Assembly: GCA_964515925.1 (NCBI GenBank) | Contig: CAZEYP010000001.1 | Location: 22,718-86,717, forward strand | Origin: an uncultured Nitrospirota bacterium | Lineage (GTDB): Bacteria; Nitrospirota; Thermodesulfovibrionia; Thermodesulfovibrionales; JdFR-85 | Length of the DNA: 64,000 nt | Direction of reading: 5' to 3' | Part shown: in pieces, positions 13,482 to 46,688 of the stretch | How the letters are laid out: the number at the start of each line of letters is the position of its first letter | Position numbering within the stretch: the stretch's first letter is position 1 | Notes under the pieces: model-generated | What the model was told of the DNA's origin: nothing | What the model saw: only the letters and a program-made list of their open reading frames with translations | The model's database searches: none | Position numbers and translations under genes: made by a program

Positions 13482-13521
13482 ACAAATAACCAATAACAAA
13501 TTTAATCAAATAACAAACTTT
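13482..13521 (+). repeat. G-free CA/A-rich leader word array directly 5' of acsE
   Basis: acaaataaccaataacaaatttaatcaaataacaaacttt is 40 nt with no G (hand count). Confidence 0.7.
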
Positions 13522-15525: not shown

Positions 15526-15580
15526 ATACATCATCATTTACCTACTAAACCAATATACCAATAACCAATTAACTAATTTC
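15526..15580 (+). repeat. G-free CA-rich word array (ACCAATA type) between the acsD stop and the acsC Shine-Dalgarno
   Basis: 55 nt with no G (hand count): ..cctactaaaccaatataccaataaccaattaactaatttc. It is followed by GGAGG at 15581-15585. Confidence 0.85.
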
Positions 15581-15592
15581 GGAGGTTATAAA

Positions 15593-16936: not shown

Positions 16937-16938
16937 AA

Positions 16939-17090
16939 CAGGGAGCAGGGCATAGGGGGCAGGGTGTAGTGAGTGTAGAGTTTTGAGTTTTGAGTGTTGA
17001 GTAAAAGCATAACTTAATAATTCAGCACTCAACAATATACATTAAAAACTTTTAATTCCCTGCCCACTACACGCTACACCCTACACCCTA
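16939..17090 (+). repeat. Composite imperfect inverted repeat: G/T-rich arm, short loop, C/A-rich arm
   Basis: The left arm is cagggagcagggcatagggggcagggtgtagtgagtgtagagttttgagttttgagtgttgagt. The right arm is actcaacaatatac...ccctgcccactacacgctacaccctacacccta. It starts 3 nt after the acsC stop. Confidence 0.85.
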
Positions 17091-17242
17091 TATTATTTGT
17101 AATTTAAATCGGTCAATTAAGTAAGTTGACTTTTATAAAGCATTTAGTTTAAAAATTAGGTATAGCCCTTAATCCCGTCTTTAAGAAAAAAAGGCGGGAT
17201 TTAATTATTTTAAAAAAGACAATAAACACAGAGGAGGTTCAG

Positions 17243-19456
17243 ATGTCAAAGATAATAGCCTCAGCAGCGATGCGTGGCTCTCACAAGGTCTTCAAACAGG
17301 CTGAGGAGCTTTTACAGAAGGTCATAGCAGAAAAAGGCGAGGACTATAAGTTTGAGTTTCCTGATACAGCCTACTATCTGCCGATGATTTATGCAATGAC
17401 GGGTTTTGAGGTTAAGACCCTTGCTGACATGAAAGAGGCATTAAGGATGGCGCAGGACCTGCTGCATGATGAGCCTGATGATAAGATCTGGACACCCTAT
17501 CTGGGTGAGGCGCTTGACAGTGGAATGGCAACGCTTTTTGCCGAGGAGATATGGCTTGCATGCCGTTACATCGAAGGGCTTGAGCCAGAGAAGGACCCAG
17601 AGACTGGCTACGAGTACAATGGTTTTATTACTGATACCATTCAGCGTAACCTTGGTATCCAGCTGGTTGATGGAAGGATGCCAGGTTTTGCAGCCATTAT
17701 TGGTGCTGCACCGGACGAGGAGACAGCATTAAAGATAGTCCGTGAGCTTCAGGAGAAAAACATACTGGTCTTCCTCTCAGGTCAGGCAAAGGACAAAAAC
17801 GGAAAACTCACCAGTTGCACCCGCCAGTTGCTTAATCAGGGGATTGAGCTCGGATGGGATGTCTATGTGGTTCCTCTGGGTACCACCACAGAGCATACCC
17901 TTTATGCCCTTGACTGGGCAATCAGGGCATCCCTTATCTTTGGTGGTCATAAACCAGGGGACTTCAAAAACAACCTTAAATACACAAAGGACCGTGTCTT
18001 TGCCTTTGCCCTTGGTCTTGGTGAGATGGATGACATTAAGTGGGCAACAGGTGCAGGTGCCATCAACATGGGATTTCCTGCAGTCTGTGACACAGAGGTT
18101 CCTGTTATCCATCCAACAGGTGTATGTACCTATGAGGAAGTTGAAAGGGAGCTTGACCACGACAAAATCGTGCAGCGTGCCATTGAGGTAAGGGGGCTTA
18201 AGGTCATAGTTGACAAACCCCCCATACCGATTGCCTATGGTTCAGCCTTTGAGGGTGAGCGTATAAGGAAGGACGACACCTTTATTGAGTTTGGTGGAAA
18301 TCGCACACCTGCATTTGAGTGGTGCAGGATGAGGGAGCTTGATGAGATAGAGGATGGAAAGATCACCATTGTTGGTGAGAACTGGAAGGAGCGTTATGAG
18401 CAAGGAGGGCAGATGCCCCTTGGGATACTCGTAGAGGTGGCTGGAAGGAAGATGCAGCCTGACTTTCTGCCTATTATTGAGCGCAGGCTTCATCATAACA
18501 TAAACGAAGGACAGGGAATCTGGCACATGGGCCAGAGGGATATTAACTGGATAAGGATAAGTAAGAACGCAAAGGCCGAGGGATTTTCTCTTGAGGATAT
18601 TGCAAAGATACATCATGCTATGACTCATAAGAGGTTCAGGGCAATCGTTGACAAGGTTCAGGTAACCCTGTTTACTGATGAAGAAGATGTAATTAAGTGG
18701 CGTGAAGAGGCAAGGGCAGAGTGGAAGGCAAGGGATGAGCGTCTTGCAGCACTTACGGACGACAGTGTGGATACCTTCTACAGTTGTCTGCTCTGCCAGA
18801 GCTTTGCGCCAAGCCATGTTTGTGTGATCACACCCGAGAGGCTTGGCCTCTGTGGTGCTTATAACTGGCTTGACTGTAAGGCTGCCTATGAAATTGATCC
18901 CACAGGTGGTAACCAGCCTGTTCCAAAGGGTGAGCTTGTTGATGCAAGGTATGGCAGATATACAGGTGTGGATGAGTATCTCAAGAAGGCATCAGGCGGT
19001 GCAGTAGAGACCCTGAATCTTTACACAATAATGGAAAACCCCATGACCTCCTGTGGTTGCTTTGAATGTATTGTGGCAATTATTCCAGAGGCAAATGGTG
19101 TAATGATAGTTCAGCGTGGACATACAGGTATGACCCCTATTGGAATGAAGTTTTCCACCCTTGCTGGAACCGTTGGTGGTGGAATGCAGACACCCGGGTT
19201 CATGGGGATTGGTGTTAACTTTATAACCAGTAAGAAATTCCTTGCAGGCGACGGAGGCCTGAAGAGGATAGTCTGGATGACCAAGGCACTGAAGGAAAGG
19301 ATAAAGGAGCAGTTCCAGAAGAGGGCAGAAGAGGAAGGTGTGCCTGATCTTCTTGATAAGATTGCCGACGAGACGATCTGTGAGGATTCAGAAAAACTGC
19401 TTGAGTTCCTGACACAGGTAGGACATCCAGCACTTGAGATGGAGCCGATGATATAA
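17243..19456 (+). CDS. acsB: Acetyl-CoA synthase (A-cluster subunit) AcsB
   Basis: 737 aa with A-cluster cysteines in CLLCQSFAPSHVCVITPERLGLCGA and the Cys-Gly-Cys motif MTSCGCFEC. GAGGAGG lies upstream. Confidence 0.92.
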   Translation: MSKIIASAAMRGSHKVFKQAEELLQKVIAEKGEDYKFEFPDTAYYLPMIYAMTGFEVKTLADMKEALRMAQDLLHDEPDDKIWTPYLGEALDSGMATLFAEEIWLACRYIEGLEPEKDPETGYEYNGFITDTIQRNLGIQLVDGRMPGFAAIIGAAPDEETALKIVRELQEKNILVFLSGQAKDKNGKLTSCTRQLLNQGIELGWDVYVVPLGTTTEHTLYALDWAIRASLIFGGHKPGDFKNNLKYTKDRVFAFALGLGEMDDIKWATGAGAINMGFPAVCDTEVPVIHPTGVCTYEEVERELDHDKIVQRAIEVRGLKVIVDKPPIPIAYGSAFEGERIRKDDTFIEFGGNRTPAFEWCRMRELDEIEDGKITIVGENWKERYEQGGQMPLGILVEVAGRKMQPDFLPIIERRLHHNINEGQGIWHMGQRDINWIRISKNAKAEGFSLEDIAKIHHAMTHKRFRAIVDKVQVTLFTDEEDVIKWREEARAEWKARDERLAALTDDSVDTFYSCLLCQSFAPSHVCVITPERLGLCGAYNWLDCKAAYEIDPTGGNQPVPKGELVDARYGRYTGVDEYLKKASGGAVETLNLYTIMENPMTSCGCFECIVAIIPEANGVMIVQRGHTGMTPIGMKFSTLAGTVGGGMQTPGFMGIGVNFITSKKFLAGDGGLKRIVWMTKALKERIKEQFQKRAEEEGVPDLLDKIADETICEDSEKLLEFLTQVGHPALEMEPMI

Positions 19457-19460
19457 AACA

Positions 19461-19538
19461 GGGTTTAGGGAGTAGCGTATAGGGTGTATAATTGAACGCA
19501 TAAACCCTAAAACACAACTAACGCTATAAACGCAAAAC
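19461..19538 (+). repeat. Word-repeat spacer with a short hairpin between acsB and cooS
   Basis: The sequence is cagggtttagggagtagcgtatagggtgtat aattgaacgc ataaaccctaaaacacaactaacgctataaacgc. tagggtgtat pairs with ataaacccta (9 of 10). Confidence 0.7.
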
Positions 19539-19551
19539 TTTGGAGGTAAAA

Positions 19552-21543
19552 ATGGCTGAGAAGGTAATAAAAAGTGTAGATAAGGTGGCAGAGAATATTC
19601 TGGAGTGGGCTGAGGCTCACGGCCTTGAAACTGCCTTTGAGCGGTCTGAGAGAATAAAGCCCTGTCCCATTGGTCATAGTGGCGCCTGCTGTAAGATATG
19701 TTTCATGGGGCCATGCAGACTGGTAGGTCAGGATGCAGAGGAAAAGGCAACAGGTGTCTGTGGTGCCACACTTCCAGTGGTATCTGCAAGGAACCTTCTG
19801 AGGATGGTGGCGGCAGGAACGGCAGCTCACAGTGACCATGCCCGTGATATGGCTTATACACTGCTTGAGGCTGCCACCGGTGAGGCACCTGACTTTCAGA
19901 TAAGGGATGTTCAGAAACTCAAAAAGCTGGCCAACATCCTTGAGATACCAACTGAAGATAGAACAAAAGAGGAGATTGCAAAGGATGTAGCCGAGAAACT
20001 CATCTCCGAGTTTGGTCAGCAAAAGGGAGAGCTTTCCTTTATAAAGAGGGCACCAAAAAAACGCCAGGAGATATGGCGCAAGTGGGGAGTGGTGCCAAGA
20101 GGCATTGACCGTGAAGTTGTTGAGGCCATGCACCGGACTAATATGGGAGTGGACCAGGACCCTGACAACCTTCTTATGGCCGCACTTAAGGTCTCACTTG
20201 CTGACGGCTGGGGCGGAAGCATGATAAGCACTGACATCACCGATATACTCTTTGGCACACCAAAGCCCCGTCGGTCACAGGCAAGTATTGGCATAATGAA
20301 GGAGGATGAGGTAAATGTGGTGGTTCATGGTCATGAGCCAACACTGGCTGAGATGATTGTTGAGGTCTCCCAGGAGCCTGAGATTGTTGAGTATGCTAAG
20401 AAGAAGGGCGCAAAGGGCATAAACCTTGTGGGTATGTGTTGTACTGCCAACGAGGTGTTGATGCGTCATGGAATCCCCACGGCAGGTGGTTTCCTCAATC
20501 AGGAGCTTGCCATTATGACCGGTCTGGCTGAAGCCATAATGGTGGATGTCCAGTGCATTATGCCTGCAATTGCTCAGGCTGCAAAGAAGTTTCATACCAA
20601 GGTTGTTACCACCTCACATAAGGGTAAGATGATAGATGCGGTTCACATTCAGTATGATGAGCACAGGGCAAAGGAGATTGCCCGTCAGATACTGAGGCTT
20701 GCTATAGATAATTACGAAAACCGTAAGGCCGAAGGGGCTCATGTTCATGAGACATCACCTGTGATAGCTGGCTTCTCACACGAGTATATCGACTACATGC
20801 AGGGAGGCAGATTCAGGGCATCCTTCAGGCCGCTAAACGATGCAATAATGGCAGGACGTATTCGCGGTGTTGCTGGCATTGTTGGATGTAACAACCCGAG
20901 GATTGCCCCACAGGACAGCATACATGATTATCTTGCTATAGAGTTTATCAAAAACGATGTGCTTGTAGTGACCACAGGTTGTGGTGCTGCTGCATGTGCC
21001 AAGGCAGGATTTATGACGCCTGAGACTGCCCTTGAGATGGCAGGTCCGGGGCTCAGAGAGGTCTGTGAGGCGATTGGTATTCCGCCAATCCTGCACCTTG
21101 GTGCCTGTGTGGACAACTCAAGGATACTTACCGTTGCAACCCAGATGGCAGAGGAAGGTGGGCTTGGTGAGGATATTGCAGACCTGCCTGCAGTGGGAAT
21201 TGCACCTGAGTGGATGAGTGAGAAGGCACTGGCAATTGGCTGTTACTTTGTTGCCTCTGGCGTATATACCATATTTGGTTCAGAGCATCCTGCTGAGGCA
21301 TCCAAAGAGGTGCAGAGGATAATGAGCGAGGTCTGGGAAGAGCGGTTTGGTGGAAAGCTTGAGTTCATCCCTGACCCTGAGGAGATACTGAAGAAGTCCC
21401 TTGAGCACATTGATAAGAAAAGAGATGCACTTAAGCTCCGCAAATACGAGCCAGGCAGATTTCGCGTTGAAAGGAAACTGCTCAGCATGGCTGACAGGCG
21501 TAAACTTGAATCTGCAGCAAGACCCCATGAAGGAGTGGGATAA
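19552..21543 (+). CDS. cooS: Anaerobic carbon monoxide dehydrogenase catalytic subunit CooS/AcsA
   Basis: Starts at ATG 19552, 6 nt after GGAGG. The track's TTG at 19540 overlaps the SD. It has N-terminal cluster cysteines CPIGHSGACCKICFMGPCR and C-cluster region residues HGHEP and GMCCTANE. Confidence 0.92.
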   Translation: MAEKVIKSVDKVAENILEWAEAHGLETAFERSERIKPCPIGHSGACCKICFMGPCRLVGQDAEEKATGVCGATLPVVSARNLLRMVAAGTAAHSDHARDMAYTLLEAATGEAPDFQIRDVQKLKKLANILEIPTEDRTKEEIAKDVAEKLISEFGQQKGELSFIKRAPKKRQEIWRKWGVVPRGIDREVVEAMHRTNMGVDQDPDNLLMAALKVSLADGWGGSMISTDITDILFGTPKPRRSQASIGIMKEDEVNVVVHGHEPTLAEMIVEVSQEPEIVEYAKKKGAKGINLVGMCCTANEVLMRHGIPTAGGFLNQELAIMTGLAEAIMVDVQCIMPAIAQAAKKFHTKVVTTSHKGKMIDAVHIQYDEHRAKEIARQILRLAIDNYENRKAEGAHVHETSPVIAGFSHEYIDYMQGGRFRASFRPLNDAIMAGRIRGVAGIVGCNNPRIAPQDSIHDYLAIEFIKNDVLVVTTGCGAAACAKAGFMTPETALEMAGPGLREVCEAIGIPPILHLGACVDNSRILTVATQMAEEGGLGEDIADLPAVGIAPEWMSEKALAIGCYFVASGVYTIFGSEHPAEASKEVQRIMSEVWEERFGGKLEFIPDPEEILKKSLEHIDKKRDALKLRKYEPGRFRVERKLLSMADRRKLESAARPHEGVG

Positions 21544-21546
21544 TTT

Positions 21547-21581
21547 AAGATTTCAGATTTATGATTTGAGATTTTAGATTT
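21547..21581 (+). repeat. Tandem heptad array NAGATTT (5 units)
   Basis: aagattt cagattt atgattt gagattt tagattt runs straight into the SD GGAGG of the next gene. Confidence 0.85.
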
Positions 21582-21591
21582 GGAGGTTTGG

Positions 21592-22077
21592 ATGGATATA
21601 GAAAAGATTGATGTTGACAGTGAAATCGGTAAGGTTGGTGCACATATCTGTGAACATGACAAAAAGAAGGGATTACTGATTCCAATATTGCATAAGATAC
21701 AGGAAGACTATGGATACCTTCCTGGTGAGGCACTGGAGAGGCTTTCAAAGAAGCTGGGACTGCCCCTTGCCGAGATATACTCGGTGGCGAGTTTTTATCA
21801 TCAGTTTCACTTCAGCCCCCGTGGAAAGAAGATAGTCCGTGTCTGCATGGGAACGGCCTGCCATGTTCGTGGTGCAGGGAAGGTGCTTGAGAAACTACAG
21901 GAGCACTTTAAGATAGATGTTGGAGAGACAACCGAAGACCTTACCATGACCCTTGAGACCGTTGGCTGTGTGGGTTGCTGCGGCCTTGCACCGGTTGTTA
22001 CCATAAATGATGATGTGGTGGGTGAGCTGACACCTAAGAAGCTGGATGAGGTAATAGAGGAGATAGAAGAAGAGTAA
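21592..22077 (+). CDS. NuoE/HydC-like thioredoxin-fold [2Fe-2S] subunit
   Basis: Starts at ATG 21592 after GGAGG. Cys motifs are CMGTACHVRG and CVGCCGLAP. Confidence 0.85.
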   Translation: MDIEKIDVDSEIGKVGAHICEHDKKKGLLIPILHKIQEDYGYLPGEALERLSKKLGLPLAEIYSVASFYHQFHFSPRGKKIVRVCMGTACHVRGAGKVLEKLQEHFKIDVGETTEDLTMTLETVGCVGCCGLAPVVTINDDVVGELTPKKLDEVIEEIEEE

Positions 22078-22080
22078 TAG

Positions 22081-22122
22081 TTTAACTCAACACTAACCAC
22101 TCATAACTAAACACTTAATTTT
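22081..22122 (+). repeat. G-free CA-rich word array 5' of the next SD
   Basis: tttaactcaacactaaccactcataactaaacacttaatttt is 42 nt with no G. It is followed by GAGGAGG. Confidence 0.8.
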
Positions 22123-22133
22123 GTGAGGAGGAT

Positions 22134-24473
22134 ATGGCTAAGCTTAAGAGCATTGAGGAACTGAAAAACCTTAGACTTTTATTAAAAGAGGAGACCTTTC
22201 CAGAAGGTCGTGAGCGTATAAGGGCCTGCACAGGCACGGCCTGTATGGCTTCTGGTGCAAATAAGGTGATAGAAAGGATTGAGGAGAAGGCAAAGGAAAA
22301 AGGTCTTGACATACAGGTGATTCGTACTGGCTGTCAGGGGCTATGCCAGAAGGGGCCTATTATGAAGATAGAGCCCTATGGATACTTTTATCAGAAGGTA
22401 AAGGTAGATGATGCAGAGGCGGTAGTCAGTAATACCCTTTCTGCAGGCTATCCGGTCAGGCACCTCCTGAATCGCGACTCCTTTTTTGTAGAGCCCCATG
22501 AATTAATGGATGAGCTACCCTTTTATAAAAAACAGCTTCGTATAGCCCTTCGTAACAACGGAAGGATTGACCCACTTAACATATACCACTATATCGCTGT
22601 AGGTGGATACACAGGACTGGAGAAGGCATTAAGCAGCATGACCCCTGACCAGGTCCTTGATGAAGTAGACAGGGCAAACCTCCGTGGTCGGGGAGGTGCA
22701 GGATTCCCAGCAGGTAAGAAGTGGCGTCATACAAAAAGGGCTCCAGGGGATTTAAAGTTTGTAATTGCAAACGGTGACGAAGGTGACCCTGGTGCGTTCA
22801 TGGACCGCTCAATCATGGAGGGCGACCCTCACAGTCTTATAGAGGGAATGCTTCTTTGTGCCTACGCAATTGGTGCAGAGTATGGCTTTATATATGTTCG
22901 TCATGAGTATCCACTGGCTGTTAAGAATCTCAGGCATGCTATCAAACAGGCAGAGGACCTGGGAATTCTTGGTGAAAACATACTTGGTAGTGGATTTAAT
23001 TTTTATCTTGATGTCCGCGAGGGTGCAGGTGCCTTTGTATGCGGAGAGTCAACAGCTCTGGTTGCCTCAATTGAAGGAGACAGAGGCTTTCCAAGGCCAA
23101 GGCCACCACGGCTCAGTGAGCCTGGTGGTGGGCTGTGGGGTGTGCCTTCAAATCTGAATAACATTGAGACCTATGCCTGTGTGCCGCCAATTATTGAAAA
23201 AGGCGCAGACTGGTTCCGCTCTATAGGAACCGAGACATCCCCTGGCACCAAGGTCTTTGCACTCACTGGTAAGGTTAAAAACACAGGACTGGTAGAGGTG
23301 CCAATGGGTATTACGCTCAGGGAGATTATATTTGACATTGGCGGTGGGATCCTTGGGGATAAGAAGTTCAAGGCTGTCCAGACAGGCGGCCCATCAGGTG
23401 GCTGTCTGCCCGAGGAGTATCTTGACCTGCCTGTTGATTTTGACTCATTAAGGAAGGTTGGCTCCATGATGGGCTCTGGTGGTATGGTGGTGATGGACGA
23501 GGATACATGTATGGTGGATGTGGCAAAGTACTTTCTTTCATTTACACAGGCAGAATCCTGTGGTAAATGTCCACCCTGCCGTCTCGGCACATACCAGATG
23601 CTTCAGATTCTTGAGAGGATCACCAATGGTCAGGGCGAACCTGGCGACATTGAAAGGCTTATCAAGTATGGCAAGCTCACGCAGGAGGGCTCACTCTGCG
23701 GACTTGGTCAGAGTGCACCAAATCCTGTGCTGAGCACGATTAAGTATTTCAGAGAGGAGTACGAAGAGCATATCTATGATAAGTATTGCAGGGCAAAGGT
23801 ATGTAAGGGAATGGGTGTATTCTCCATAGACCTTACACAGTGCATCCGTTGTGGTCTATGCAAGGAGGCCTGTGCCTTTGATGCAGTTAAGGAGACACGG
23901 GATGCTTTCATAATAGACAGGGATTACTGCACAAAGTGTAAGGCCTGTTACATGGTCTGTCCTGTGGATGCCGTGAAGATATGGAAGGAAAGACATCTCA
24001 AGATGGTTGAGGCATTGAAGATTCCTCCTGAAAAGATAGAAACCATTGAAAGGAGAGTAAAGATGAAACTCAAAGATGTGCTTGAGGCAAAACCTCGGGA
24101 GGTCTTCACTGTAAGAAAGGACAAGAGCGTTTCCTATGCAGTGAAGTTCATGAGTGAGCATAACATTGGTGCACTGCTTGTGGTGGATGAAAAGGATAAA
24201 CTGGTTGGAATGTTTACTGAAAGGGATGTGCTTCATTGCACTGCCCGTGGTGTTGACCTTGACTCAGAGCCAGTTGAAAATGTGATGAGTAAGGAGCTTA
24301 TTACATTCTCTCCAGATGATGATATTGCTGTTGCTGTGCAGGTTATTGCAGATAAGAAGAAGAGACACCTGCCCATTGTTGAGGGTGACAGGATCGTTGG
24401 CCTGGTAAATTATCGTGATGTGGTCAGTTATCTGCTGCCAGAGGTATTCTATCTGTCAGAGGCACTTTATTGA
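22134..24473 (+). CDS. NuoF/HydB-like NAD(P)H-binding FMN/Fe-S subunit with an N-terminal [2Fe-2S] domain, C-terminal 2x[4Fe-4S] and a tandem CBS-domain pair
   Basis: 779 aa with GLRGRGGAGFP (FMN/NADH site), ESCGKCPPCRLGT (N3-type cluster), ferredoxin motifs CIRCGLCKEAC and CTKCKACYMVCP, and a final ~135 aa (about 24063-24470) that forms a CBS pair (..HNIGALLVVDEKDKLVGMFTERDV.. / ..RHLPIVEGDRIVGLVNYRDV..). Confidence 0.85.
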   Translation: MAKLKSIEELKNLRLLLKEETFPEGRERIRACTGTACMASGANKVIERIEEKAKEKGLDIQVIRTGCQGLCQKGPIMKIEPYGYFYQKVKVDDAEAVVSNTLSAGYPVRHLLNRDSFFVEPHELMDELPFYKKQLRIALRNNGRIDPLNIYHYIAVGGYTGLEKALSSMTPDQVLDEVDRANLRGRGGAGFPAGKKWRHTKRAPGDLKFVIANGDEGDPGAFMDRSIMEGDPHSLIEGMLLCAYAIGAEYGFIYVRHEYPLAVKNLRHAIKQAEDLGILGENILGSGFNFYLDVREGAGAFVCGESTALVASIEGDRGFPRPRPPRLSEPGGGLWGVPSNLNNIETYACVPPIIEKGADWFRSIGTETSPGTKVFALTGKVKNTGLVEVPMGITLREIIFDIGGGILGDKKFKAVQTGGPSGGCLPEEYLDLPVDFDSLRKVGSMMGSGGMVVMDEDTCMVDVAKYFLSFTQAESCGKCPPCRLGTYQMLQILERITNGQGEPGDIERLIKYGKLTQEGSLCGLGQSAPNPVLSTIKYFREEYEEHIYDKYCRAKVCKGMGVFSIDLTQCIRCGLCKEACAFDAVKETRDAFIIDRDYCTKCKACYMVCPVDAVKIWKERHLKMVEALKIPPEKIETIERRVKMKLKDVLEAKPREVFTVRKDKSVSYAVKFMSEHNIGALLVVDEKDKLVGMFTERDVLHCTARGVDLDSEPVENVMSKELITFSPDDDIAVAVQVIADKKKRHLPIVEGDRIVGLVNYRDVVSYLLPEVFYLSEALY

Positions 24474-24618
24474 TTTTAGATTTGAGATTTAAGATTTCAG
24501 ATTTAAAAGCTCTGTAAGCGCTGTGTTCTCTGTGGTTAAAATAGAAGAAGTGCATAAGTTTGGAAAATTGGGATTTGGAATTTGTTTAGAAATTAGGGTT
24601 TAGAAATTAGAATTTTTA
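24474..24618 (+). repeat. Composite spacer element: NAGATTT heptads, then NNCTCTGTG nonamers, then GGAATTT/AGAAATT words
   Basis: The sequence is tttagatttgagatttaagatttcagatttaaaagctctgtaagcgctgtgttctctgtggtt...ggaaaattgggatttggaatttgtttagaaattagggtttagaaattagaattttt. It is homologous to 59829-59967 and partly to 48466-48563. Confidence 0.85.
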
Positions 24619-24636
24619 AAAATCGGGGTGTGAGAT

Positions 24637-25251
24637 ATGGAAGAAAAGAAGGTTCTAAAGGTAGAAGACATAAAGAGGGAGGCTGATGAGAGGAAGTGTC
24701 CTGTTCAGCGGTCACTTTATTACATTGATGAGTTCCTGAAGGGGCCCATGTGTGGTAGATGTTTTCCCTGTGGGATGGGAACCTATGAGGCAAGGATTCG
24801 GCTTGAGAGGATAATAAATAACGAAGGCGGTGAAGATGACATTCAGGCATTAAAGAGGATTGCTTCTGATATGCTTGTTTCTTCCTTCTGTAAAAAGGGA
24901 AAGGATACTGCAAAATTTATGCTCGAGTGGCTTGATAGTGGAGTCTTTCAGGAGCACATAAACGGAATATGTCCAGATGCAGAGTGTCTCCAGTTTATCA
25001 GGTATAAGGTCATTGGTGAGAAATGTATAAACTGTGGTGAGTGTAAAAAGGTCTGTAAGTATCACGCTGTGTTCGGGCAGACCCGTAAAAGCAGATTTAA
25101 ATTTGGTTATCCACCTTTTGAGATTAGAGACCGCAGGTGTACCCGTTGCGGTGCCTGTCTTCCAGTATGTCCAACAGGTGCAATTGTCGTGATAGAGCGT
25201 AAAACAGGCCGTATAGTTAAGGAAAAGGAGGTTCCAGAAGAGGTAGGATAA
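24637..25251 (+). CDS. Fe-S protein: stand-alone NuoF C-terminal-like [4Fe-4S] module plus a 2x[4Fe-4S] ferredoxin domain
   Basis: 204 aa. MCGRCFPCGMGT resembles the NuoF cluster-N3 motif. It also has the ferredoxin motifs CINCGECKKVC and CTRCGACLPVCP. Confidence 0.65.
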   Translation: MEEKKVLKVEDIKREADERKCPVQRSLYYIDEFLKGPMCGRCFPCGMGTYEARIRLERIINNEGGEDDIQALKRIASDMLVSSFCKKGKDTAKFMLEWLDSGVFQEHINGICPDAECLQFIRYKVIGEKCINCGECKKVCKYHAVFGQTRKSRFKFGYPPFEIRDRRCTRCGACLPVCPTGAIVVIERKTGRIVKEKEVPEEVG

Positions 25252-25259
25252 CCCAATTG

Positions 25260-25300
25260 TCTATTAACTAATAAACCAATATACCAATAACAACTTTTTA
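25260..25300 (+). repeat. G-free CA-rich word array 5' of the SD
   Basis: tctattaactaataaaccaatataccaataacaacttttta is 41 nt with no G. GGAGG follows at 25301. Confidence 0.8.
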
Positions 25301-25310
25301 GGAGGTTTTC

Positions 25311-27317
25311 ATGTCGGAGAAGGTCAAACTAACAATAGACGGTAAAGATGTCACTGTTAAGGCTGGCTCCACCATACTGGATGCTGCAGAGCAGGCAGGC
25401 ATTCATATCCCTAACCTCTGTTACCTGAAGGGCATGAAGGGCATTGGTGCCTGCAGGATGTGTCTTGTGGAGATTGAAGGAATGAAGGCACCAATGACTG
25501 CATGCACGGCGAGGGTTAAGGATGGAATGGTTGTAAAAACCACCAATGAACAGATAGAGGAGATTAGAAAGTATGTTATAGACCTGATACTCAGCATGCA
25601 TCCCCTTGACTGTATGACCTGCACAAAGGCAGGTGTGTGCCAGCTTCAGCAGTATGCCTATGACCTTGAGATTAAGGAGTCATCCTTTAGTAGAAAGAAG
25701 TTTGGCTTTGACACTGATGAAGGAAACCCATTTATCAAACGCGACCCTGACTACTGCATCCTCTGTGCCCGGTGTGTGAGAGTATGTAAAGAGCAGGGCA
25801 CATCAGTGCTGGATTTTTATGGCCGCGGCGTGGGTGCAAAGGTGACCACTGCACAGGACAGACCACTTCAGGAGGCAGGATGCACCTTCTGCGGTAGCTG
25901 TCTTGATGCCTGCCCAGTTAACGCAATCTTAGAGGCAGACCGCTGGCGCAGAGGCCGTGAATGGGACTACGAAAGGGTTGAGTCAACCTGTCTGTTCTGC
26001 GGAAATGCCTGCTCCACGGTTGTAAGCACCTATCGTGGAGATGTGGCAAAGGTGAATGCCTCTGGTGATAAGGGCAGGGTTGACCATTTTATCTGCGCCT
26101 ATGGTCGCTATGGTTTTGATTATATAAACGGTGATACCAGGGTGCTTGAGCCACTTAAGAGGATGGATGGAGAGTTTAAGCTCATTTCCTGGACACAGGC
26201 AATAGAGGATATGGCAAGGGCACTGATGGATGATGCAAACTCTGGAATTATAACCGCCGGGAACCTGCTTAATGAGGACTATCTGTCCATTAAAAGGTTT
26301 GCTGACGAGGCAGGTATCAAAAACATAGACTGCACGGTAAGTGCCTATGCTGATGAGGCAAGCCTCCTTGGTCCTGAGGTTGACATAAACGAGGCTGACT
26401 GTCTTGTTGTGGTTGGACTTAACCCATCTCAATGGGATAGGGTTCATGCCTGTCTTGACGCATCCTTAAGAAGGGCAAAGGCCCGTGGAGCAAAGCTGAT
26501 AGTGATTAACTCCGTAGATACAAGGCTTGCTGAGGTTGCTGATGTGGCAGTAAAGGCATCTGAGGCCGATACAATGGCTGCCCTTGCAAAGGCTCTCAAA
26601 GAGCAGGGAGAACCCCTCCCTAAAGGTTTAAAGGTGCCTGATGTGGATGTGTCTGAAGAAATAAACAAAGCTGCAGAGCTTTATGTGAAGGCATCAAATC
26701 CTGTGGTAGTATCCTCCCCGGTATACTTTGAGGCATCGAGCAATGTGGCATTGATAAAGGGTGCCGCAGTTTCTGTCCCCATAGAGGCAAATGCAAAGGG
26801 AGCCCTGCTTATGGGTATTAAAGGAACCGGCAAGAGCTACAACGAGATGGCATCAGAAGGCATAAAGATACTTTATGTAATAGGTGATGTAGCTATGAAG
26901 AGACCTGCTGGTGTTGATATGCTAATAGTTCAGAACTCCCACATGACAGAGCTTGCCAAAGAGGCTGACCTTGTGCTTCCTTCAATAACGAGTTTCGAGT
27001 CAAATGGCACGGTAGTTGACTACATGGGAAGGATGAAGACAGTTAAGGCTGCCATAGAGCCCTTTGCAGAGTCAAAGACCACTGTAGATATAATTAAGGC
27101 TCTTTCAAAGAAGATGGGGCTTAAGGTTAAGCCAGCAACATCGGCTGATGTGAAAAAGCAAATCAAGGGCTATAAAGTGGAAATTAAACCCTCAGATTTT
27201 AAGGCAAGAGATGACCTTACATTTAATCCTGCTGATTTTATTCCACAGAGCCTTTCAACAATGGTGCAGAGCTCCAGGCTACTGTGGCTCAGGGAAGTGC
27301 AGGCACAGACTGCTTAA
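25311..27317 (+). CDS. NuoG-like Fe-S subunit ([2Fe-2S], His-ligated and 4Cys [4Fe-4S] clusters, truncated molybdopterin-oxidoreductase-like domain)
   Basis: 668 aa with CRMCLVE..C, HPLDCMTCTKAGVC, CILCARCVRVC, CTFCGSCLDACP and a MopB-type N-terminal cluster CLFCGNAC. There is no catalytic Cys/Sec motif of the FdhA type. Confidence 0.8.
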   Translation: MSEKVKLTIDGKDVTVKAGSTILDAAEQAGIHIPNLCYLKGMKGIGACRMCLVEIEGMKAPMTACTARVKDGMVVKTTNEQIEEIRKYVIDLILSMHPLDCMTCTKAGVCQLQQYAYDLEIKESSFSRKKFGFDTDEGNPFIKRDPDYCILCARCVRVCKEQGTSVLDFYGRGVGAKVTTAQDRPLQEAGCTFCGSCLDACPVNAILEADRWRRGREWDYERVESTCLFCGNACSTVVSTYRGDVAKVNASGDKGRVDHFICAYGRYGFDYINGDTRVLEPLKRMDGEFKLISWTQAIEDMARALMDDANSGIITAGNLLNEDYLSIKRFADEAGIKNIDCTVSAYADEASLLGPEVDINEADCLVVVGLNPSQWDRVHACLDASLRRAKARGAKLIVINSVDTRLAEVADVAVKASEADTMAALAKALKEQGEPLPKGLKVPDVDVSEEINKAAELYVKASNPVVVSSPVYFEASSNVALIKGAAVSVPIEANAKGALLMGIKGTGKSYNEMASEGIKILYVIGDVAMKRPAGVDMLIVQNSHMTELAKEADLVLPSITSFESNGTVVDYMGRMKTVKAAIEPFAESKTTVDIIKALSKKMGLKVKPATSADVKKQIKGYKVEIKPSDFKARDDLTFNPADFIPQSLSTMVQSSRLLWLREVQAQTA

Positions 27318-27350
27318 TCAATTTAATACATAGGATTATTGGCAAACAGA

Positions 27351-27386
27351 AAAACACCCCGGTTACAATCCGGGGTGTTTTTTTTA
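27351..27386 (+). terminator. Rho-independent terminator (potentially bidirectional)
   Basis: aaaacaccccgg ttacaat ccggggtgtttttttt has a 9-bp GC-rich stem (27354-27362 with 27370-27378) and a T8 run, with an A-run on the 5' side. Confidence 0.85.
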
Positions 27387-27517: not shown

Positions 27518-27595
27518 TGGCGTCCCCAACGGGATTCGAACCCGTGTTACCGCCTTGAAAGGGCGGTGTCCTAGGCCTGGCTAGACGATGGGGAC
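27518..27595 (-). tRNA. tRNA-Glu (anticodon UUC), CCA encoded
   Basis: The reverse complement is GTCCCCATCGTCTAGCCAGGCCTAGGACACCGCCCTTTCAAGGCGGTAACACGGGTTCGAATCCCGTTGGGGACGCCA. It has a cloverleaf, anticodon loop CTTTCAA, and is close to E. coli tRNA-Glu. Confidence 0.92.
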
Positions 27596-27602
27596 GCTGT
27601 AC

Positions 27603-27669
27603 GGAAGTCTGAAGTCGGAAATCAGAATATGTTATCTGACCTCCGACCTCTGACCTCTGTCCTCTGTCC
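27603..27669 (-). repeat. Inter-tRNA spacer hairpin built from heptads (CTGACCT array versus GAAGTC/GAAATC array)
   Basis: 27603-27626 pairs with 27635-27658. There are 18 Watson-Crick pairs on either strand, plus 4 further G:U pairs only in the minus-strand (tRNA-sense) RNA. Confidence 0.8.
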
Positions 27670-27745
27670 TGGTGAGCCGCCGGGGATTCGAACCCCGCAC
27701 ACCCGCCTTAAAAGGGCGGTGCTCTGCCGACTGAGCTAGCGGCCC
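27670..27745 (-). tRNA. tRNA-Lys (anticodon UUU), CCA encoded
   Basis: The reverse complement is GGGCCGCTAGCTCAGTCGGCAGAGCACCGCCCTTTTAAGGCGGGTGTGCGGGGTTCGAATCCCCGGCGGCTCACCA. The anticodon loop is CTTTTAA. Confidence 0.92.
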
Positions 27746-27916
27746 TGCAAAATTAGACTATTAGGATACAAATTTATTGGCTCTTCTGTCAATCCTTCTG
27801 CATTCCTCAAAAATAATCTACACGAAGGGGTATAGTTTTTCCTCATAATTGACAAAGATGGCAAACATCCGTTAAGCCTTAAGATAGTTGCCCGAGTCCC
27901 TAAAGGAGTATACACC

Positions 27917-28068: not shown

Positions 28069-28145
<77 letters not shown>

Positions 28146-28386
28146 GTGATTATATTAAAACAATGGCTAAAATATTGTCAAATCGCATTAGATCACCCAA
28201 AATCCGAAATAGACAAGGGCAAAATTGTAAATACCTTCCACATAGAGGTCCTTACACGATGCTTATGCCATCCCTCTGAAAACAACATCTCTTAGGAAGT
28301 TAAAATAATCTTGTGTCTGTGAGTAAAATATATAACTATGAATAAAACATAGGAATTTGTTTGTTAACAGGAAATTAGGATGCATG

Positions 28387-28427: not shown

Positions 28428-28504
28428 TTCCTCGCTGTCATTCTGAGCGAAGAGAAGAATCTTAAAAACAGGGAGTAGGGGGTAGTTAAAATACCTACAC
28501 CCTG
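28428..28504 (+). repeat. Two small hairpin words in the leader: a GTCATTCTGAGCGAAGAGAAGAATC copy and a minimal CAGGGAGTAGG...CCTACACCCTG hairpin
   Basis: 28437-28461 matches the 2720-2748 word family. In 28469-28479 versus 28494-28504, 10 of 11 positions pair. Confidence 0.8.
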
Positions 28505-28553
28505 AAGTTTAGAATTTATATTTGGTAGTTTGTGCTGAAATCCACTGATATTT

Positions 28554-34222: not shown

Positions 34223-35310
34223 CCATTATATCTGCAATAGTACTTCTGGGGGTGTTAATATTTGTTCATGAGTTGGGCCATTTTATCGTGGCAAAGCTCT
34301 CAGGGGTGAAGGTGCTCAGGTTTTCCCTTGGCTTTGGCCCGAAGGTGGTGGGAAAACAGTTCGGTGAAACAGAGTACCTGCTTTCGGCAATACCGCTTGG
34401 TGGGTATGTAAAGATGCTTGGTGAGGAGCCTGACGAGGAGCTTCCTGCAGAGGAGGCAGAAAGGGCATTTAACCGTCAGCCCATTAGAAAGAGGGCATTG
34501 ATAGTTTTTGCTGGTCCCTTTTTTAATGTCCTGCTAACCTACATCATATTTACAGCAGTTCTGGCAGTTGGACTGCCAATAAATATCCCGGTTGTTAAGC
34601 AGTTAAAACCAAGTATTGATAAAGTGGAGGAGGGTTATCCTGCGCAGAAGGCCGGACTGAAGGCAGGTGACATTGTCAAAGAGATAGATGGCCGTCCGGT
34701 TGACACCTGGTTTGACCTGGTCAGTATTGTCTCAAAAAGCCCCGGGAAAGAGCTTGAGTTTATGGTGTTAAGGGGGGAAAGGCTGATAAAGATAAAGATA
34801 ACTCCCCGAAGGGTTGAAAAAAAGGGCCCAGACGGCAAAAGAATTGTTATTGGAAGGATAGGAGTCAGGAAAACAGGAGATGGATTTTTTGAGAGTATCC
34901 AGGCAAAGGGGGCTTTAGAGGCACCTTTTAAGGGTGCCATGGCCACCTACAGGATGGGCTTTTTTATAGTGGACTCAATCAGGATGCTTGTGACAGGAGA
35001 GGTATCATTTAAAAACCTTGGTGGGCCTGTCACTATTATCAAGGAATCAGGAAAGGCGGCTTCAGCAGGCATACTTGCCTATGTTATGTTTATGGCCCTT
35101 TTGAGTGTAAACCTTGCGGTGCTGAATCTTCTGCCTATACCGATTCTTGATGGTGGACATCTGCTTCTGTTTGCAGTGGAGGCAATGAAGGGTGAGCCAC
35201 TTAATGAAGAAATCGTGATTATAGTGCACAAAATAGGCTATGCGATACTTATAATACTTATGGGTTTTGCCCTTTACAACGACATCGTAAGGATATTTAC
35301 CGATTCTTAA
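34219..35310 (+). CDS. rseP: RIP site-2 zinc metalloprotease RseP
   Basis: 363 aa with HELGHF, a PDZ segment, and a C-terminal NLLPIPILDGGH. Confidence 0.9.
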   Translation: MTIISAIVLLGVLIFVHELGHFIVAKLSGVKVLRFSLGFGPKVVGKQFGETEYLLSAIPLGGYVKMLGEEPDEELPAEEAERAFNRQPIRKRALIVFAGPFFNVLLTYIIFTAVLAVGLPINIPVVKQLKPSIDKVEEGYPAQKAGLKAGDIVKEIDGRPVDTWFDLVSIVSKSPGKELEFMVLRGERLIKIKITPRRVEKKGPDGKRIVIGRIGVRKTGDGFFESIQAKGALEAPFKGAMATYRMGFFIVDSIRMLVTGEVSFKNLGGPVTIIKESGKAASAGILAYVMFMALLSVNLAVLNLLPIPILDGGHLLLFAVEAMKGEPLNEEIVIIVHKIGYAILIILMGFALYNDIVRIFTDS

Positions 35311-35316
35311 CCCATG

Positions 35317-35350
35317 ACCAATACACAAATAACCAATATACCAACATCAC
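35317..35350 (+). repeat. G-free CA-rich word array directly abutting the next start codon
   Basis: accaatacacaaataaccaatataccaacatcac. There is no SD between it and the ATG at 35351. Confidence 0.75.
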
Positions 35351-42092: not shown

Positions 42093-42240
42093 GGTGAATT
42101 GGTATATTGGTGTAGTGGTGTAGTGGTGAAGGGGTGAAACAGGCTTCAGGCTATAGGCTTAAGGTTATGGGCAATGGATTAAGATGCGAATATCAAAAAA
42201 GCCAGATTAATAATTTAGTAATCCAATAATCTAATAACTT
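42093..42240 (+). repeat. Octamer word arrays: G/T-rich arm GTGNANTG, spacer, C/A-rich arm
   Basis: ggtgaattggtatattggtgtagtggtgtagtggtgaaggggtgaaac ... attaataatttagtaatccaataatctaataactt lies between the NuoF-like gene and vapB. Confidence 0.75.
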
Positions 42241-45560: not shown

Positions 45561-45640
45561 ATTAATAGCGTTGGTAGTGTTGATTGGAGTTGGGTTAGGG
45601 TGTTTTTACTACTCCCTACACGCTACACCCTGAACCCTAA
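45561..45640 (+). repeat. Dispersed composite repeat, copy M (GCGTT words, conserved core, CNCCCTA heptads)
   Basis: attaatagcgttggtagtgttgattggagttgggttagggtgtttttactactccctacacgctacaccctgaaccctaa aligns with 57440-57520 and with the reverse complement of 50830-50910. Confidence 0.85.
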
Positions 45641-45690
45641 ATATGTTATATTTATCAGTCAGCTAATTTGAAGGAATTCGGAGGAAAGAG

Positions 45691-46149: not shown

Positions 46150-46180
46150 TGTAATGGTGTATTGGTGTAGTGGTATAGTG
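46149..46180 (+). repeat. Left (G/T-rich octamer) arm of the stem enclosing the four-helix-bundle ORF
   Basis: gtgtaatggtgtattggtgtagtggtatagtg pairs with 46598-46629 (27 WC plus 2 G:U of 32, hand-aligned). Confidence 0.8.
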
Positions 46181-46219
46181 GTAAATTGATGATAGGATGT
46201 TTTAGATAAATAATATATA

Positions 46220-46591: not shown

Positions 46592-46678
46592 AAAATACAA
46601 TACACTATTACACCAATACACCAATACACAAATATACCAATATACCAATATATTATTTTACTAATACACCAACATTAA
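46575..46678 (+). repeat. Right (C/A-rich octamer AYACCAAT) arm; a 104-nt stretch with no G
   Basis: ..caatacactattacaccaatacaccaatacacaaatataccaatataccaatatattattttactaatacaccaacattaa runs up to the AGGAGG of fhs. There is no G from 46575 to 46678 (hand count). Confidence 0.85.
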
Positions 46679-46688
46679 GGAGGTCATT

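What the first reader, a model, noticed from the sequence alone, without database searches (positions are those of the whole stretch)
27603..27658. Inter-tRNA spacer forms a 24-position hairpin whose mismatches become G:U only on the tRNA-sense strand
**Seen in the sequence.** 27603-27626 (ggaagtctgaagtcggaaatcaga) was aligned by hand against 27635-27658 (tctgacctccgacctctgacctct) around an 8-nt loop.
- There are 18 Watson-Crick pairs on either strand.
- The four A:C mismatches of the plus strand (27621/40, 27620/41, 27613/48, 27606/55) become U:G wobbles in the minus-strand RNA. That is the strand carrying tRNA-Lys and tRNA-Glu.
- This gives 22 of 24 paired in the tRNA sense and 19 of 24 in the antisense.
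- The arms are heptad arrays (CTGACCT x5) of the same style as the mRNA spacer arrays.

**Inference.** Strand-specific wobble compensation indicates selection on RNA structure. A long stem between two tRNAs is what an RNase III-type processing site in a polycistronic tRNA precursor would look like. It ties the repeat family to RNA processing.
Basis: partly seen in the sequence, partly recalled or inferred. Interest (0 to 1): 0.6.

Follow-up and report, generated by a model that had tools for sequence, protein, structure and literature searches.

The report
Heptad-repeat RNA hairpin between two tRNAs
The 74-base gap between the lysine and glutamate tRNA genes of an uncultured Nitrospirota bacterium is built from 7-base repeats that fold into a long hairpin, more stable in the RNA sense than in the antisense; six related lineages keep it and two lack it, so it is a real but dispensable structured spacer whose role in tRNA processing is unproven.

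Summary
Positions 27603-27626 and 27635-27658 give 18 Watson-Crick pairs, 22/24 paired in the tRNA sense (- strand) and 19/24 in the antisense. MFE is -36.1 against -26.4 kcal/mol, and no shuffle folds as well.

In this window alone the G:U asymmetry is weak. It is 4 against 1, and three of the four lie at the same heptad phase.

Relatives strengthen it. A tRNA-Lys anchor found 11 Nitrospirota loci with identical tRNAs, a conserved promoter and Lys-Glu adjacency. Spacers run from 2 to 87 nt. All six lineages with a spacer of 40 nt or more fold into a hairpin, and five build it from the same heptad vocabulary (the sixth keeps only a 9-bp stem). The sense strand is always the more stable. Strand-neutral counting gives G:U to A:C of 20:5.

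The stem is therefore maintained at the RNA level. It is not essential: two relatives lack it and one lineage has only 9 bp. RNase III cleavage is plausible but untested. The exact unit occurs nowhere else in the 64 kb, although other oriented heptad arrays in the window also fold only in the sense RNA.

Verdict: a new variant of bacterial heptamer-repeat elements, of moderate interest.

The parts
27763..27792 (-). Sigma-70-like promoter of the Lys-Glu unit (TTGACA, 18 nt, TATCCT)
   Evidence: Consensus scan. TTGACA lies at the same distance, about 47 nt upstream of tRNA-Lys, in all 11 related loci. No promoter-like site was found inside the spacer.
27670..27745 (-). tRNA-Lys(UUU) gene with encoded CCA
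   Evidence: ARAGORN. Rfam tRNA at 62.6 bits.
27661..27669 (-). Unpaired start of the spacer, GGACAGAGG: the outermost GGACAGA heptad plus two bases of the second GGACAGA heptad, directly 3' of CCA
   Evidence: MFE structure. L007 has one fewer GGACAGA unit.
27635..27660 (-). 5' arm of the RNA hairpin, with GGTCAGA, GGTCGGA, GGTCAGA as its three loop-proximal heptads
   Evidence: TRF finds 5.1 copies of period 7.
27627..27634 (-). 8-nt loop UAACAUAU
   Evidence: The loop is identical in L007.
27601..27626 (-). 3' arm of the RNA hairpin (units UCUGAUU, UCCGACU, UCAGACU, UCCG..)
   Evidence: Its U at unit positions 6 and 7 pairs with G or A of the 5' arm.
27596..27600 (-). Unpaired 5-nt leader ACAGC before tRNA-Glu +1; the final GC is conserved in every relative
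   Evidence: The L009 spacer is just GC.
27518..27595 (-). tRNA-Glu(UUC) gene with encoded CCA, followed by a T-run
27348..27384 (.). Perfect 13-bp GC-rich palindrome flanked by A-run and T-run. It is a likely bidirectional terminator for the tRNA unit (-) and the convergent 668-aa oxidoreductase gene (+).
   Evidence: the repeat finder pair I2. Energies are -22.8 and -21.0 kcal/mol on the two strands.

Best explanation
**What it is.** The Lys-Glu spacer is a transcribed, structured spacer made of slippage-prone heptad arrays.

**Transcription.** A conserved promoter just upstream of tRNA-Lys drives a dicistronic Lys-Glu precursor.

**Folding.**
- The spacer's 5' array (GGUCRGA)n and 3' array (UCYGAYU)n fold on each other.
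- The result is a self-contained helix spanning 26 positions (24 pairs), with G:U pairs at fixed unit positions.
- It fills almost the whole gap, leaving 0-9 nt after CCA and 2-5 nt before Glu +1.
- Selection acts on the RNA, keeping the two arrays mutually pairable while units are gained, lost and mutated.

**Inferred processing.**
- RNase P cuts at Glu +1.
- The stable stem would block 3' exonucleases from reaching the CCA of tRNA-Lys.
- An endonuclease must therefore remove it. The best candidate is double-strand-specific RNase III cutting within the stem. The alternative is a cut at its base.
- Exonucleolytic trimming back to the encoded CCA follows.

**Status of each step.** Shown: the arrays, the sense-biased hairpin, its conservation and turnover among relatives, and cotranscription signals. 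Inferred: the cleaving enzyme and any benefit beyond keeping the repeat spacer inert. The element is facultative, because some relatives lack it.
For: - **The hairpin is real.** z is -7.3, and the sense strand is 9.7 kcal/mol more stable than the antisense.
- **It is an independent domain.** The whole 251-nt precursor is predicted to fold as two cloverleaves plus this hairpin.
- **Relatives share the tRNA unit.** Eleven related Nitrospirota loci have identical or nearly identical tRNAs, conserved Lys-Glu adjacency and a conserved promoter.
- **The hairpin recurs.** All six lineages with spacers of 40 nt or more form a hairpin; five build it from the same heptad vocabulary, with different unit numbers and sequences, and the sixth (L005/L008) keeps only a 9-bp stem. 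All are more stable in the sense strand.
- **G:U exceeds A:C.** The strand-neutral count is 27:8, or 20:5 with one sequence per lineage.
- **Unit-level pairing favours the sense strand.** 87.2% of cells pair in the sense against 74.4% in the antisense. G:U alternates with A:U and G:C at two positions, and A:U with G:C at a third.
- **Close relatives differ in structure-neutral ways.** Window and L007 differ by changes that keep sense pairing (G:U to A:U, G:C to G:U) and by one heptad. L012 and L014 differ by one heptad.
- **The skew is not a general mutational bias.** Other arrays in the same transcriptional orientation have opposite skews. Family A is G+U-rich and folds only in the sense. Family C is A+C-rich and is unstructured in the sense.
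- **It is not a terminator.** No U-tract follows the stem.
Against: - **It is dispensable.** L009 (2-nt spacer) and L004 (13 nt) lack the hairpin despite identical tRNAs. L005/L008 have only a 9-bp stem. The element is therefore not needed for Lys/Glu maturation, and the stem is not always long enough for RNase III.
- **The G:U pairs are not independent events.** They sit at fixed unit positions (0 of 21 at unit position 2, 16 of 36 pairs at positions 6-7) and are inherited by unit amplification and common descent. The binomial figures therefore overstate the evidence.
- **Covariation is modest.** 7 of 500 shuffles reach the observed score.
- **There is no expression or cleavage data.**
- **Only about 10 orthologs from 8 lineages could be retrieved.**
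Confidence: 0.55

Rival explanations
1. **Neutral or selfish by-product.** Heptad arrays expand and contract by replication slippage. An inverted pair of arrays arose once in the spacer and persists because it is harmless. The sense-strand G:U pattern is simply the inherited sequence of the amplified units, possibly reinforced by C-to-T deamination of the non-template strand of a highly transcribed locus. Under this view there is no processing role.
For: - Unit number varies between close relatives.
- The hairpin is absent or vestigial in three lineages with identical tRNAs.
- The G:U pairs lie at fixed unit positions, so they are few independent events.
- The genome is full of tandem arrays of many unit types.
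- Heptamers are the commonest long simple-sequence repeats in bacteria and are attributed to slippage (Mrazek 2007, as summarised in PMC4679880).
Against: - Six lineages with very different arm sequences all keep the arms pairable, and all favour the sense strand.
- R:Y changes are matched across arms.
- Uniform deamination would not give 0 of 21 G:U at unit position 2 (all G:C) while 16 of the 36 pairs at positions 6-7 are G:U.
- Family C arrays in the same transcriptional sense are A+C-rich, the opposite of a C-to-T bias.
- The local + strand is G-rich (GC skew +0.15 to +0.18), so the strand background does not predict G+U excess on the - strand.
Confidence: 0.28
2. **The excised spacer hairpin acts in trans.** After RNase P and 3'-end processing, the 74-nt hairpin is released as a stable small RNA. 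It titrates a protein or RNA that recognises the genome's heptad arrays, in analogy to tRNA-spacer-derived sponges in E. coli (analogy recalled from memory, not tested here).
For: - The hairpin is a very stable, self-contained domain.
- Its 3'-arm units GAYUUCN resemble the (GAUUUNA)n arrays that follow many stop codons.
Against: - The 5' arm is a poor antisense to the mRNA arrays. By hand comparison of the unit sequences, each heptad has about two mismatches.
- Both arms are sequestered in the stem.
- The element is missing in some relatives.
- There are no expression data.
Confidence: 0.07
3. **DNA-level element.** The tandem heptads are binding sites for a DNA-binding protein (regulator or nucleoid protein) or a recombination or cruciform site. 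RNA folding would then be incidental.
For: The G. metallireducens genome paper annotates arrays of five heptads of consensus MTYCTGA, drawn as looping between strands, as putative global regulator binding sites (PMC2700814). That unit resembles the 3'-arm units here.
Against: - A DNA duplex site has no reason to keep G:T on one strand and A:C on the other, consistently in the transcript sense, across six lineages.
- A 7-bp period is out of phase with the DNA helix.
- The site lies downstream of the promoter, inside the transcription unit.
Confidence: 0.05

Closest known systems
STRR (short tandemly repeated repetitive) heptamer arrays of heterocystous cyanobacteria, including those inside the RNase P RNA gene (Vioque 1997, title seen in the reference list of PMC2858038; content from my own knowledge)
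   Same: Both are tandem 7-nt units in non-coding, transcribed DNA. Copy number varies between relatives. In the RNase P RNA case, arrays are accommodated as an extension of an RNA helix in a stable-RNA transcript and are dispensable for function.
   Different: The phylum differs (Nitrospirota) and so do the units (GGTCRGA/TCYGAYT, against CCCCAGT, TTGGTCA and CAACAGT). Here two complementary arrays form the entire inter-tRNA spacer, and the exact unit is not dispersed in the 64 kb examined.
TAACTGA direct heptamer repeats of marine Beggiatoaceae, some Cyanobacteria and Bacteroidetes (MacGregor 2015, PMC4679880)
   Same: Both are abundant, oriented intergenic heptamer arrays proposed to act post-transcriptionally. 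They occur in an uncultured sediment or hydrothermal-type bacterium.
   Different: TAACTGA arrays lie just upstream of start codons and are predicted to form no RNA structure in either orientation. No TAACTGA array is present here. The element here is an inverted pair that forms a strong sense-biased hairpin between tRNAs.
RNase III processing stems (rRNA operon stems, phage T7 intercistronic hairpins, the site after tRNA metY in the E. coli metY-nusA operon; own knowledge)
   Same: Both are long, imperfect double-stranded stems of about two helical turns inside a polycistronic precursor, placed between mature RNAs. Neither acts as a terminator.
   Different: No cleavage evidence exists here. 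The stem is built from tandem heptads and is absent or too short in several relatives. In the E. coli work retrieved here, polycistronic tRNA transcripts are separated by RNase P (valine and lysine tRNA operons; abstract of PMC4176162, seen); that RNase E does so for other operons, and that RNase III is not the usual enzyme, is my own knowledge.
Heptanucleotide arrays of Geobacter metallireducens ('class 3' sites, five tandem heptads, consensus MTYCTGA; PMC2700814)
   Same: The unit is nearly the same as the 3' arm here (TTTCTGA, CTTCCGA). The arrays are described as arranged on both strands.
   Different: They were annotated as putative DNA regulator sites with no tRNA association reported. 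They belong to a different phylum. The sequences were not examined here.

Membership tests
RNase III processing site | Double-stranded RNA stem of about 20 bp or more in the transcript | tested here: met
   22 of 24 positions pair in the sense strand, with 16 contiguous pairs and MFE -36.1 kcal/mol. The feature is not met in L005/L008 (9 bp), L004 or L009.
RNase III processing site | Lies inside a precursor between two mature RNAs (cotranscription) | tested here: inconclusive
   A conserved promoter lies upstream of tRNA-Lys, no promoter-like site lies in the spacer, and the terminator follows tRNA-Glu. These are sequence signals only; there are no transcript data.
RNase III processing site | rnc-dependent staggered cleavage within the stem | not testable with these tools
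   This needs end-mapping or in vitro cleavage.
RNase III processing site | Conserved wherever the same precursor exists | tested here: not met
   Two of eight lineages with identical tRNAs lack any stem, and one has only 9 bp.
Bacterial heptamer tandem repeats (STRR / long simple-sequence repeats) | Head-to-tail 7-nt units, three or more copies, non-coding | tested here: met
   TRF finds 5.1 copies at 89% match at 27635-27670 and 2.7 copies at 27602-27620.
Bacterial heptamer tandem repeats (STRR / long simple-sequence repeats) | Unit-number variation between related genomes | tested here: met
   Window against L007 differs by one GGACAGA unit. L012 against L014 differs by one AAGTGAG unit. 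Spacers range from 2 to 87 nt.
Bacterial heptamer tandem repeats (STRR / long simple-sequence repeats) | Same unit dispersed at many loci of the genome | tested here: not met
   Within 64 kb the unit occurs as an array only at the tRNA spacer. Other heptad families are abundant. The whole genome is not available.
Intrinsic (Rho-independent) terminator | GC-rich hairpin followed immediately by a U-tract | tested here: not met
   The stem is followed by CUUCCGUACAGC and then tRNA-Glu. The scan did not flag it.
REP/BIME-type dispersed palindromic elements | Many near-identical copies in intergenic regions | tested here: not met
   The window holds no further copy.
Any curated RNA family (Rfam 15) | Covariance-model match to the spacer | tested here: not met
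   Only the three tRNAs pass the gathering score. No hit lies on 27596-27669 even at E up to 10, apart from tRNA-model overlaps.

The most novel reading that the evidence does not exclude
**The reading.** This Nitrospirota lineage uses oriented short-repeat arrays as a transcript-level punctuation system.

**The components.**
- (GAUUUNA)n arrays placed right after stop codons are direct repeats in DNA. In RNA they fold into 16-bp A:U/G:U hairpins, and only in the sense strand.
- CA-rich octamer arrays keep the leaders in front of ribosome-binding sites unstructured.
- The Lys-Glu spacer hairpin is the GC-hardened, phylogenetically conserved member of this system.

**The proposed function.** The arrays mark where polycistronic RNAs, both mRNA and tRNA, are cut or protected by a double-strand-specific nuclease. 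This would be a repeat-encoded processing code generated and tuned by slippage.
Probability: 0.2. Interest if true: 0.7.

Novelty: new variant of a known kind. Interest (0 to 1): 0.45.

Why it matters
- **The open question.** Heptamer tandem repeats are the commonest long simple-sequence repeats in bacteria, yet their function is essentially unknown. DNA-level and RNA-level roles have been argued without decisive evidence.
- **What this case adds.** The repeat sits in a defined, highly expressed, easily assayed transcript, a two-tRNA precursor. It shows strand-specific pairing conserved through unit turnover in several species. Natural 'knock-outs' also exist, in relatives with identical tRNAs but no hairpin.
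- **Why that helps.** The RNA-level hypothesis becomes directly testable by end-mapping and by in vitro RNase III and RNase P assays.
- **A wider possibility.** The same genome may use other oriented arrays to shape mRNA structure.
- **The downside case.** If the hairpin is only tolerated junk, it is still a clean example of how slippage-generated repeats are constrained by RNA folding.

Tried and rejected
- **Cyanobacterial origin.** The many heptad arrays suggested STRR and therefore a cyanobacterium. I rejected this. The genes are Wood-Ljungdahl/CODH-ACS, DksA and cytochrome c, and every tRNA-anchor hit is a Nitrospirota MAG.
- **Beggiatoaceae TAACTGA repeats.** None are present.
- **Orthologs through flanking proteins.** tblastn of the window's neighbouring proteins against the related loci found nothing. 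The Lys-Glu unit is not syntenic with its neighbours.
- **Metagenome scan.** It added only two loci, so the sample stayed small.
- **Positional alignment for classical covariation.** MAFFT puts heptads out of register. I replaced it with strand-symmetric arm alignments and a unit-level pair count.
- **Intrinsic terminator.** Rejected because no U-tract follows the stem.
- **REP-like dispersed element.** Rejected because the window holds no other copy.
- **Known Rfam family.** None matches.
- **Literature.** Searches for heptamer repeats in Nitrospirota and for hairpins in tRNA spacers cut by RNase III returned nothing specific. Vioque 1997 is not held in the library.

Full report
**1. What is at the coordinates**

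ARAGORN and Rfam place three tRNA genes on the - strand:
- tRNA-Met at 28145..28069
- tRNA-Lys(UUU) at 27745..27670
- tRNA-Glu(UUC) at 27595..27518

All three encode their CCA. The Lys-Glu spacer is 27669..27596, 74 nt.

There are 18 Watson-Crick pairs. Four + strand A:C mismatches (27606/55, 27613/48, 27620/41, 27621/40) become G:U on the - strand. That gives 22/24 paired in the tRNA sense and 19/24 in the antisense.

TRF confirms the heptad arrays: 5.1 units at 27635-27670 and 2.7 units at 27602-27620.

As RNA, the sense spacer folds at -36.1 kcal/mol (z -7.3, 0 of 200 shuffles as good). The antisense folds at -26.4 kcal/mol (z -4.7).

Folding the whole precursor region (251 nt) gives two cloverleaves with the hairpin as a separate domain between them.

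One caveat applies. Three of the four G:U positions are exactly 7 nt apart, so they occupy the same position of an amplified unit. The asymmetry in this single sequence (4 against 1) is weak evidence on its own.

**2. The organism and the transcription unit**

The window is not cyanobacterial, despite its many heptad arrays.
- It carries a Wood-Ljungdahl CODH/ACS cluster, NuoF/NuoG-like oxidoreductases, DksA and a cytochrome c.
- The identical sequence occurs in three metagenome assemblies, with an identical spacer in the two contigs that reach it.
- A 35-nt anchor from tRNA-Lys hit nine genome loci. Eight are labelled Nitrospirota, Nitrospirae or Thermodesulfovibrio MAGs, and one sits in a bin labelled Caldisericota. 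It also hit two metagenome contigs.

In every one of these loci tRNA-Lys is followed by tRNA-Glu. The tRNAs are identical, apart from one nucleotide in each tRNA in L006/L013. A TTGACA-N17/18-TAnnnT promoter sits at the same distance upstream of tRNA-Lys, and a T-run follows tRNA-Glu.

The scan found no promoter-like site inside the window's spacer. A perfect 13-bp palindrome with A and T runs on either side lies at 27348-27384. It probably terminates both the tRNA unit and the convergent oxidoreductase gene.

The flanking protein genes are not shared between the loci. Lys-spacer-Glu therefore behaves as a unit.

**3. The orthologous spacers**

| Locus | Spacer length (nt) | Sense MFE | Antisense MFE |
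|---|---|---|---|
| L009 | 2 | no hairpin | no hairpin |
| L004 | 13 | no hairpin | no hairpin |
| L005 = L008 | 40 | -12.6 | -10.8 |
| L006 = L013 | 65 | -30.1 | -13.9 |
| L007 | 67 | -34.5 | -24.3 |
| window | 74 | -36.1 | -26.4 |
| L011 | 75 | -35.4 | -26.6 |
| L010 | 80 | -42.3 | -31.8 |
| L012 | 80 | -28.1 | -21.7 |
| L014 | 87 | -31.2 | -27.2 |

Energies are in kcal/mol.

Every spacer of 65 nt or more is a hairpin built from the same vocabulary. The 5' arm uses RGUCRGA-type units and the 3' arm uses UCYGAYU-type units. The number and sequence of units differ between loci. L005/L008 keep only a 9-bp stem, with the remaining 5'-type units in its loop.

The sense strand is the more stable in all eight distinct sequences, which represent six lineages.

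Close relatives differ in ways that do not disturb the sense structure:
- Window and L007 differ by one heptad and three substitutions: G:U to A:U, G:C to G:U, and A:A to G:A.
- L012 and L014 differ by one heptad.

The arrays therefore turn over by unit gain and loss while the two arms stay pairable.

**4. Is the G:U bias real?**

To avoid favouring the sense strand, I aligned each 5' arm to the reverse complement of its 3' arm. The scoring treats both kinds of transition mismatch alike.
- Sense G:U against sense A:C is 27:8 over all sequences.
- It is 20:5 with one sequence per lineage, taking window, L011, L010, L012 and L006. The nominal two-sided binomial probability is about 0.004.

These events are not independent, because the G:U pairs are unit-position-specific:

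| 3'-unit position | Pair types observed |
|---|---|
| 7 | G:U 9, A:U 8 |
| 6 | G:U 7, G:C 8, A:U 3 |
| 3 | A:U 9, G:C 4, G:U 1 |
| 2 | G:C 21, G:U 0 |

I also treated each paired unit as a row. In the sense strand 87.2% of cells are standard pairs, against 74.4% in the antisense. The sense covariation score is 0.277, and 7 of 500 shuffles reach it.

This pattern has two sides. A 3'-arm U held constant while its 5'-arm partner alternates G and A is what RNA-level constraint looks like. It also means the raw counts overstate the number of independent events.

**5. Mutational bias as an alternative**

Deamination of the non-template strand would also enrich G:U in the sense RNA. Three observations argue against it as the main cause.
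- G:U is never seen at unit position 2 (0 of 21, all G:C), yet it makes up 16 of the 36 pairs at positions 6-7.
- Arrays in the same transcriptional orientation elsewhere in the window have opposite skews. The (GATTTNA)n arrays are G+T-rich, and the (ATACCAAT)n arrays are A+C-rich.
- The local + strand is G-rich, with GC skew of +0.15 to +0.18. Strand background would therefore predict the opposite bias on the - strand.

**6. Relation to the other arrays in the window**

The exact units of the tRNA hairpin occur as arrays nowhere else in the 64 kb. This is not a dispersed element.

The window is nevertheless full of oriented arrays. (GATTTNA)n arrays follow stop codons and always lie in the sense of the flanking genes. 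Seven sit on + genes and one on - genes.

Those arrays are direct repeats in DNA but G:U palindromes in RNA, because AGAUUU pairs with itself.
- 21544-21579 and 24474-24508 are each predicted to form an uninterrupted 16-bp hairpin in the sense RNA. The hairpin alone is about -12 kcal/mol (-12.0 for 21544-21591; -11.4 for 24474-24508), and the antisense of the array is 0.
- The variable N positions of the two arms are complementary.

It does not hold as sequence membership.

**7. What it most likely does**

The evidence supports an RNA hairpin that is part of the Lys-Glu precursor and is maintained at the RNA level.

It is not an intrinsic terminator, because no U-tract follows it. It matches no Rfam family.

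The stem leaves only 0-9 nt after the CCA of tRNA-Lys and 2-5 nt before Glu +1. Once RNase P has cut, the trailer on tRNA-Lys would be a very stable hairpin. From general knowledge of 3'-to-5' exonucleases, such a hairpin should block trimming. An endonucleolytic cut in the stem or at its base is therefore expected. RNase III is the obvious candidate for a helix of about two turns.

This step is inference only. Against any obligatory role, two lineages with identical tRNAs have no hairpin and one has a 9-bp stem.

I therefore rate the explanations as follows:
- RNA-maintained structured spacer removed during processing: 0.55. Within that explanation, I put RNase III specifically at roughly 0.3.
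- Tolerated slippage product with inherited asymmetry: 0.28.
- Trans-acting spacer RNA: 0.07.
- DNA-level site: 0.05.

**8. Comparison with what is known**

| Known element | Resemblance | Difference |
|---|---|---|
| Cyanobacterial STRR heptamers, including arrays inside the RNase P RNA gene (Vioque 1997, cited in PMC2858038; details from my own knowledge) | Heptamer arrays in transcribed non-coding DNA | Different phylum and different units |
| TAACTGA repeats of Beggiatoaceae (PMC4679880) | Oriented intergenic heptamer arrays | Predicted unstructured, and they sit before start codons |
| 'MTYCTGA' heptad arrays of G. metallireducens (PMC2700814) | Nearly the same unit as the 3' arm | Annotated as DNA sites |

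The RNase III membership test fails on conservation and is untestable on cleavage.

I found no description of heptad arrays in Nitrospirota or of such an inter-tRNA hairpin in the held literature.

I classify the element as a new variant of a known kind. Its interest is moderate. Its main value is as a tractable test case for RNA-level function of bacterial heptamer repeats.

Noticed in passing
window 223-269, 2877-2895, 21544-21579, 24474-24508, 48475-48518, 59841-59872, 63355-63410 (+ genes); 50790-50820 (- genes): (GATTTNA)n heptad arrays lie directly after stop codons, always in the sense of the flanking genes. They are direct repeats in DNA but G:U palindromes in RNA. 21544-21579 and 24474-24508 each form an uninterrupted 16-bp hairpin of about -12 kcal/mol in the sense RNA, against 0 for the array's antisense. 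The variable N positions of the two arms are complementary.
   Followed up: partly
window 13482-13517, 15548-15578, 22078-22120, 25266-25290, 35308-35344, 46598-46672: CA-rich octamer or heptamer arrays (ATACCAAT/AACCAAT)n lie immediately 5' of Shine-Dalgarno sequences. The sense RNA is essentially unstructured while the antisense folds, for example -2.2 against -20.2 kcal/mol at 46592-46688. They look like repeat-built unstructured translation leaders.
   Followed up: partly
window 42093-42138 and 46144-46182, against 46598-46672: GT-rich arrays (ATTGGTGT/GGTGTAGT)n are complementary to the CA-rich leader arrays. The pair 46144-46182 and 46598-46672 brackets a 123-aa ORF (46220-46591), giving a potential long-range pairing across a gene.
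   Followed up: no
window 16937-17096, 19457-19539, 28470-28505, 45561-45650, 50825-50885, 57482-57557: (AGGGTGT/GGTGTAG)n arrays face (CTACACC)n arrays and form long intergenic hairpins, for example about -53 kcal/mol at 16937-17100. These show little or no strand asymmetry, unlike the tRNA spacer.
   Followed up: partly
window 50883-51019 and 57356-57466: Two 9-mer arrays, (AACGCAAAG)n with about 15 copies and its complement (ATTGCGTTA)n with about 11 copies, lie 6.3 kb apart. They flank a block of mostly - strand genes.
   Followed up: no
window 24508-24535, 48520-48545, 59876-59900: (AACTCTGTG)n-like 9-mers follow the (GATTTNA)n arrays in three separate intergenic regions, which suggests a composite element.
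   Followed up: no
window 27348-27384: A perfect 13-bp GC-rich palindrome is flanked by A and T runs. It is a probable bidirectional terminator shared by the convergent oxidoreductase gene and the tRNA unit. The consensus terminator scan did not flag it.
   Followed up: partly
window 27518-27745, 28069-28145: All three tRNA genes encode the 3' CCA. tRNA-Met has its own promoter-like site (28181..28152) and is separated from tRNA-Lys by 323 nt.
   Followed up: partly
L005 6914-7107 and L008 640-833: One MAG (SRP162660_co2_172) carries two Lys-Glu units with the identical 40-nt spacer but different flanks. This is either a duplicated tRNA unit or two binned strains.
   Followed up: no
L010 (contig JAADFP010000151.1): This contig is binned as 'Caldisericota' but carries the same tRNA-Lys, tRNA-Glu, promoter and heptad hairpin as the Nitrospirota MAGs. 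It is probably a mis-binned contig.
   Followed up: no
window 15300-27317: A Wood-Ljungdahl CODH/ACS gene cluster (CdhD, CdhC, prismane/CooS-like) is followed by NuoE/NuoF-CBS/NuoG-like electron-transfer subunits. Heptad or octad arrays occupy nearly every intercistronic gap.
   Followed up: partly
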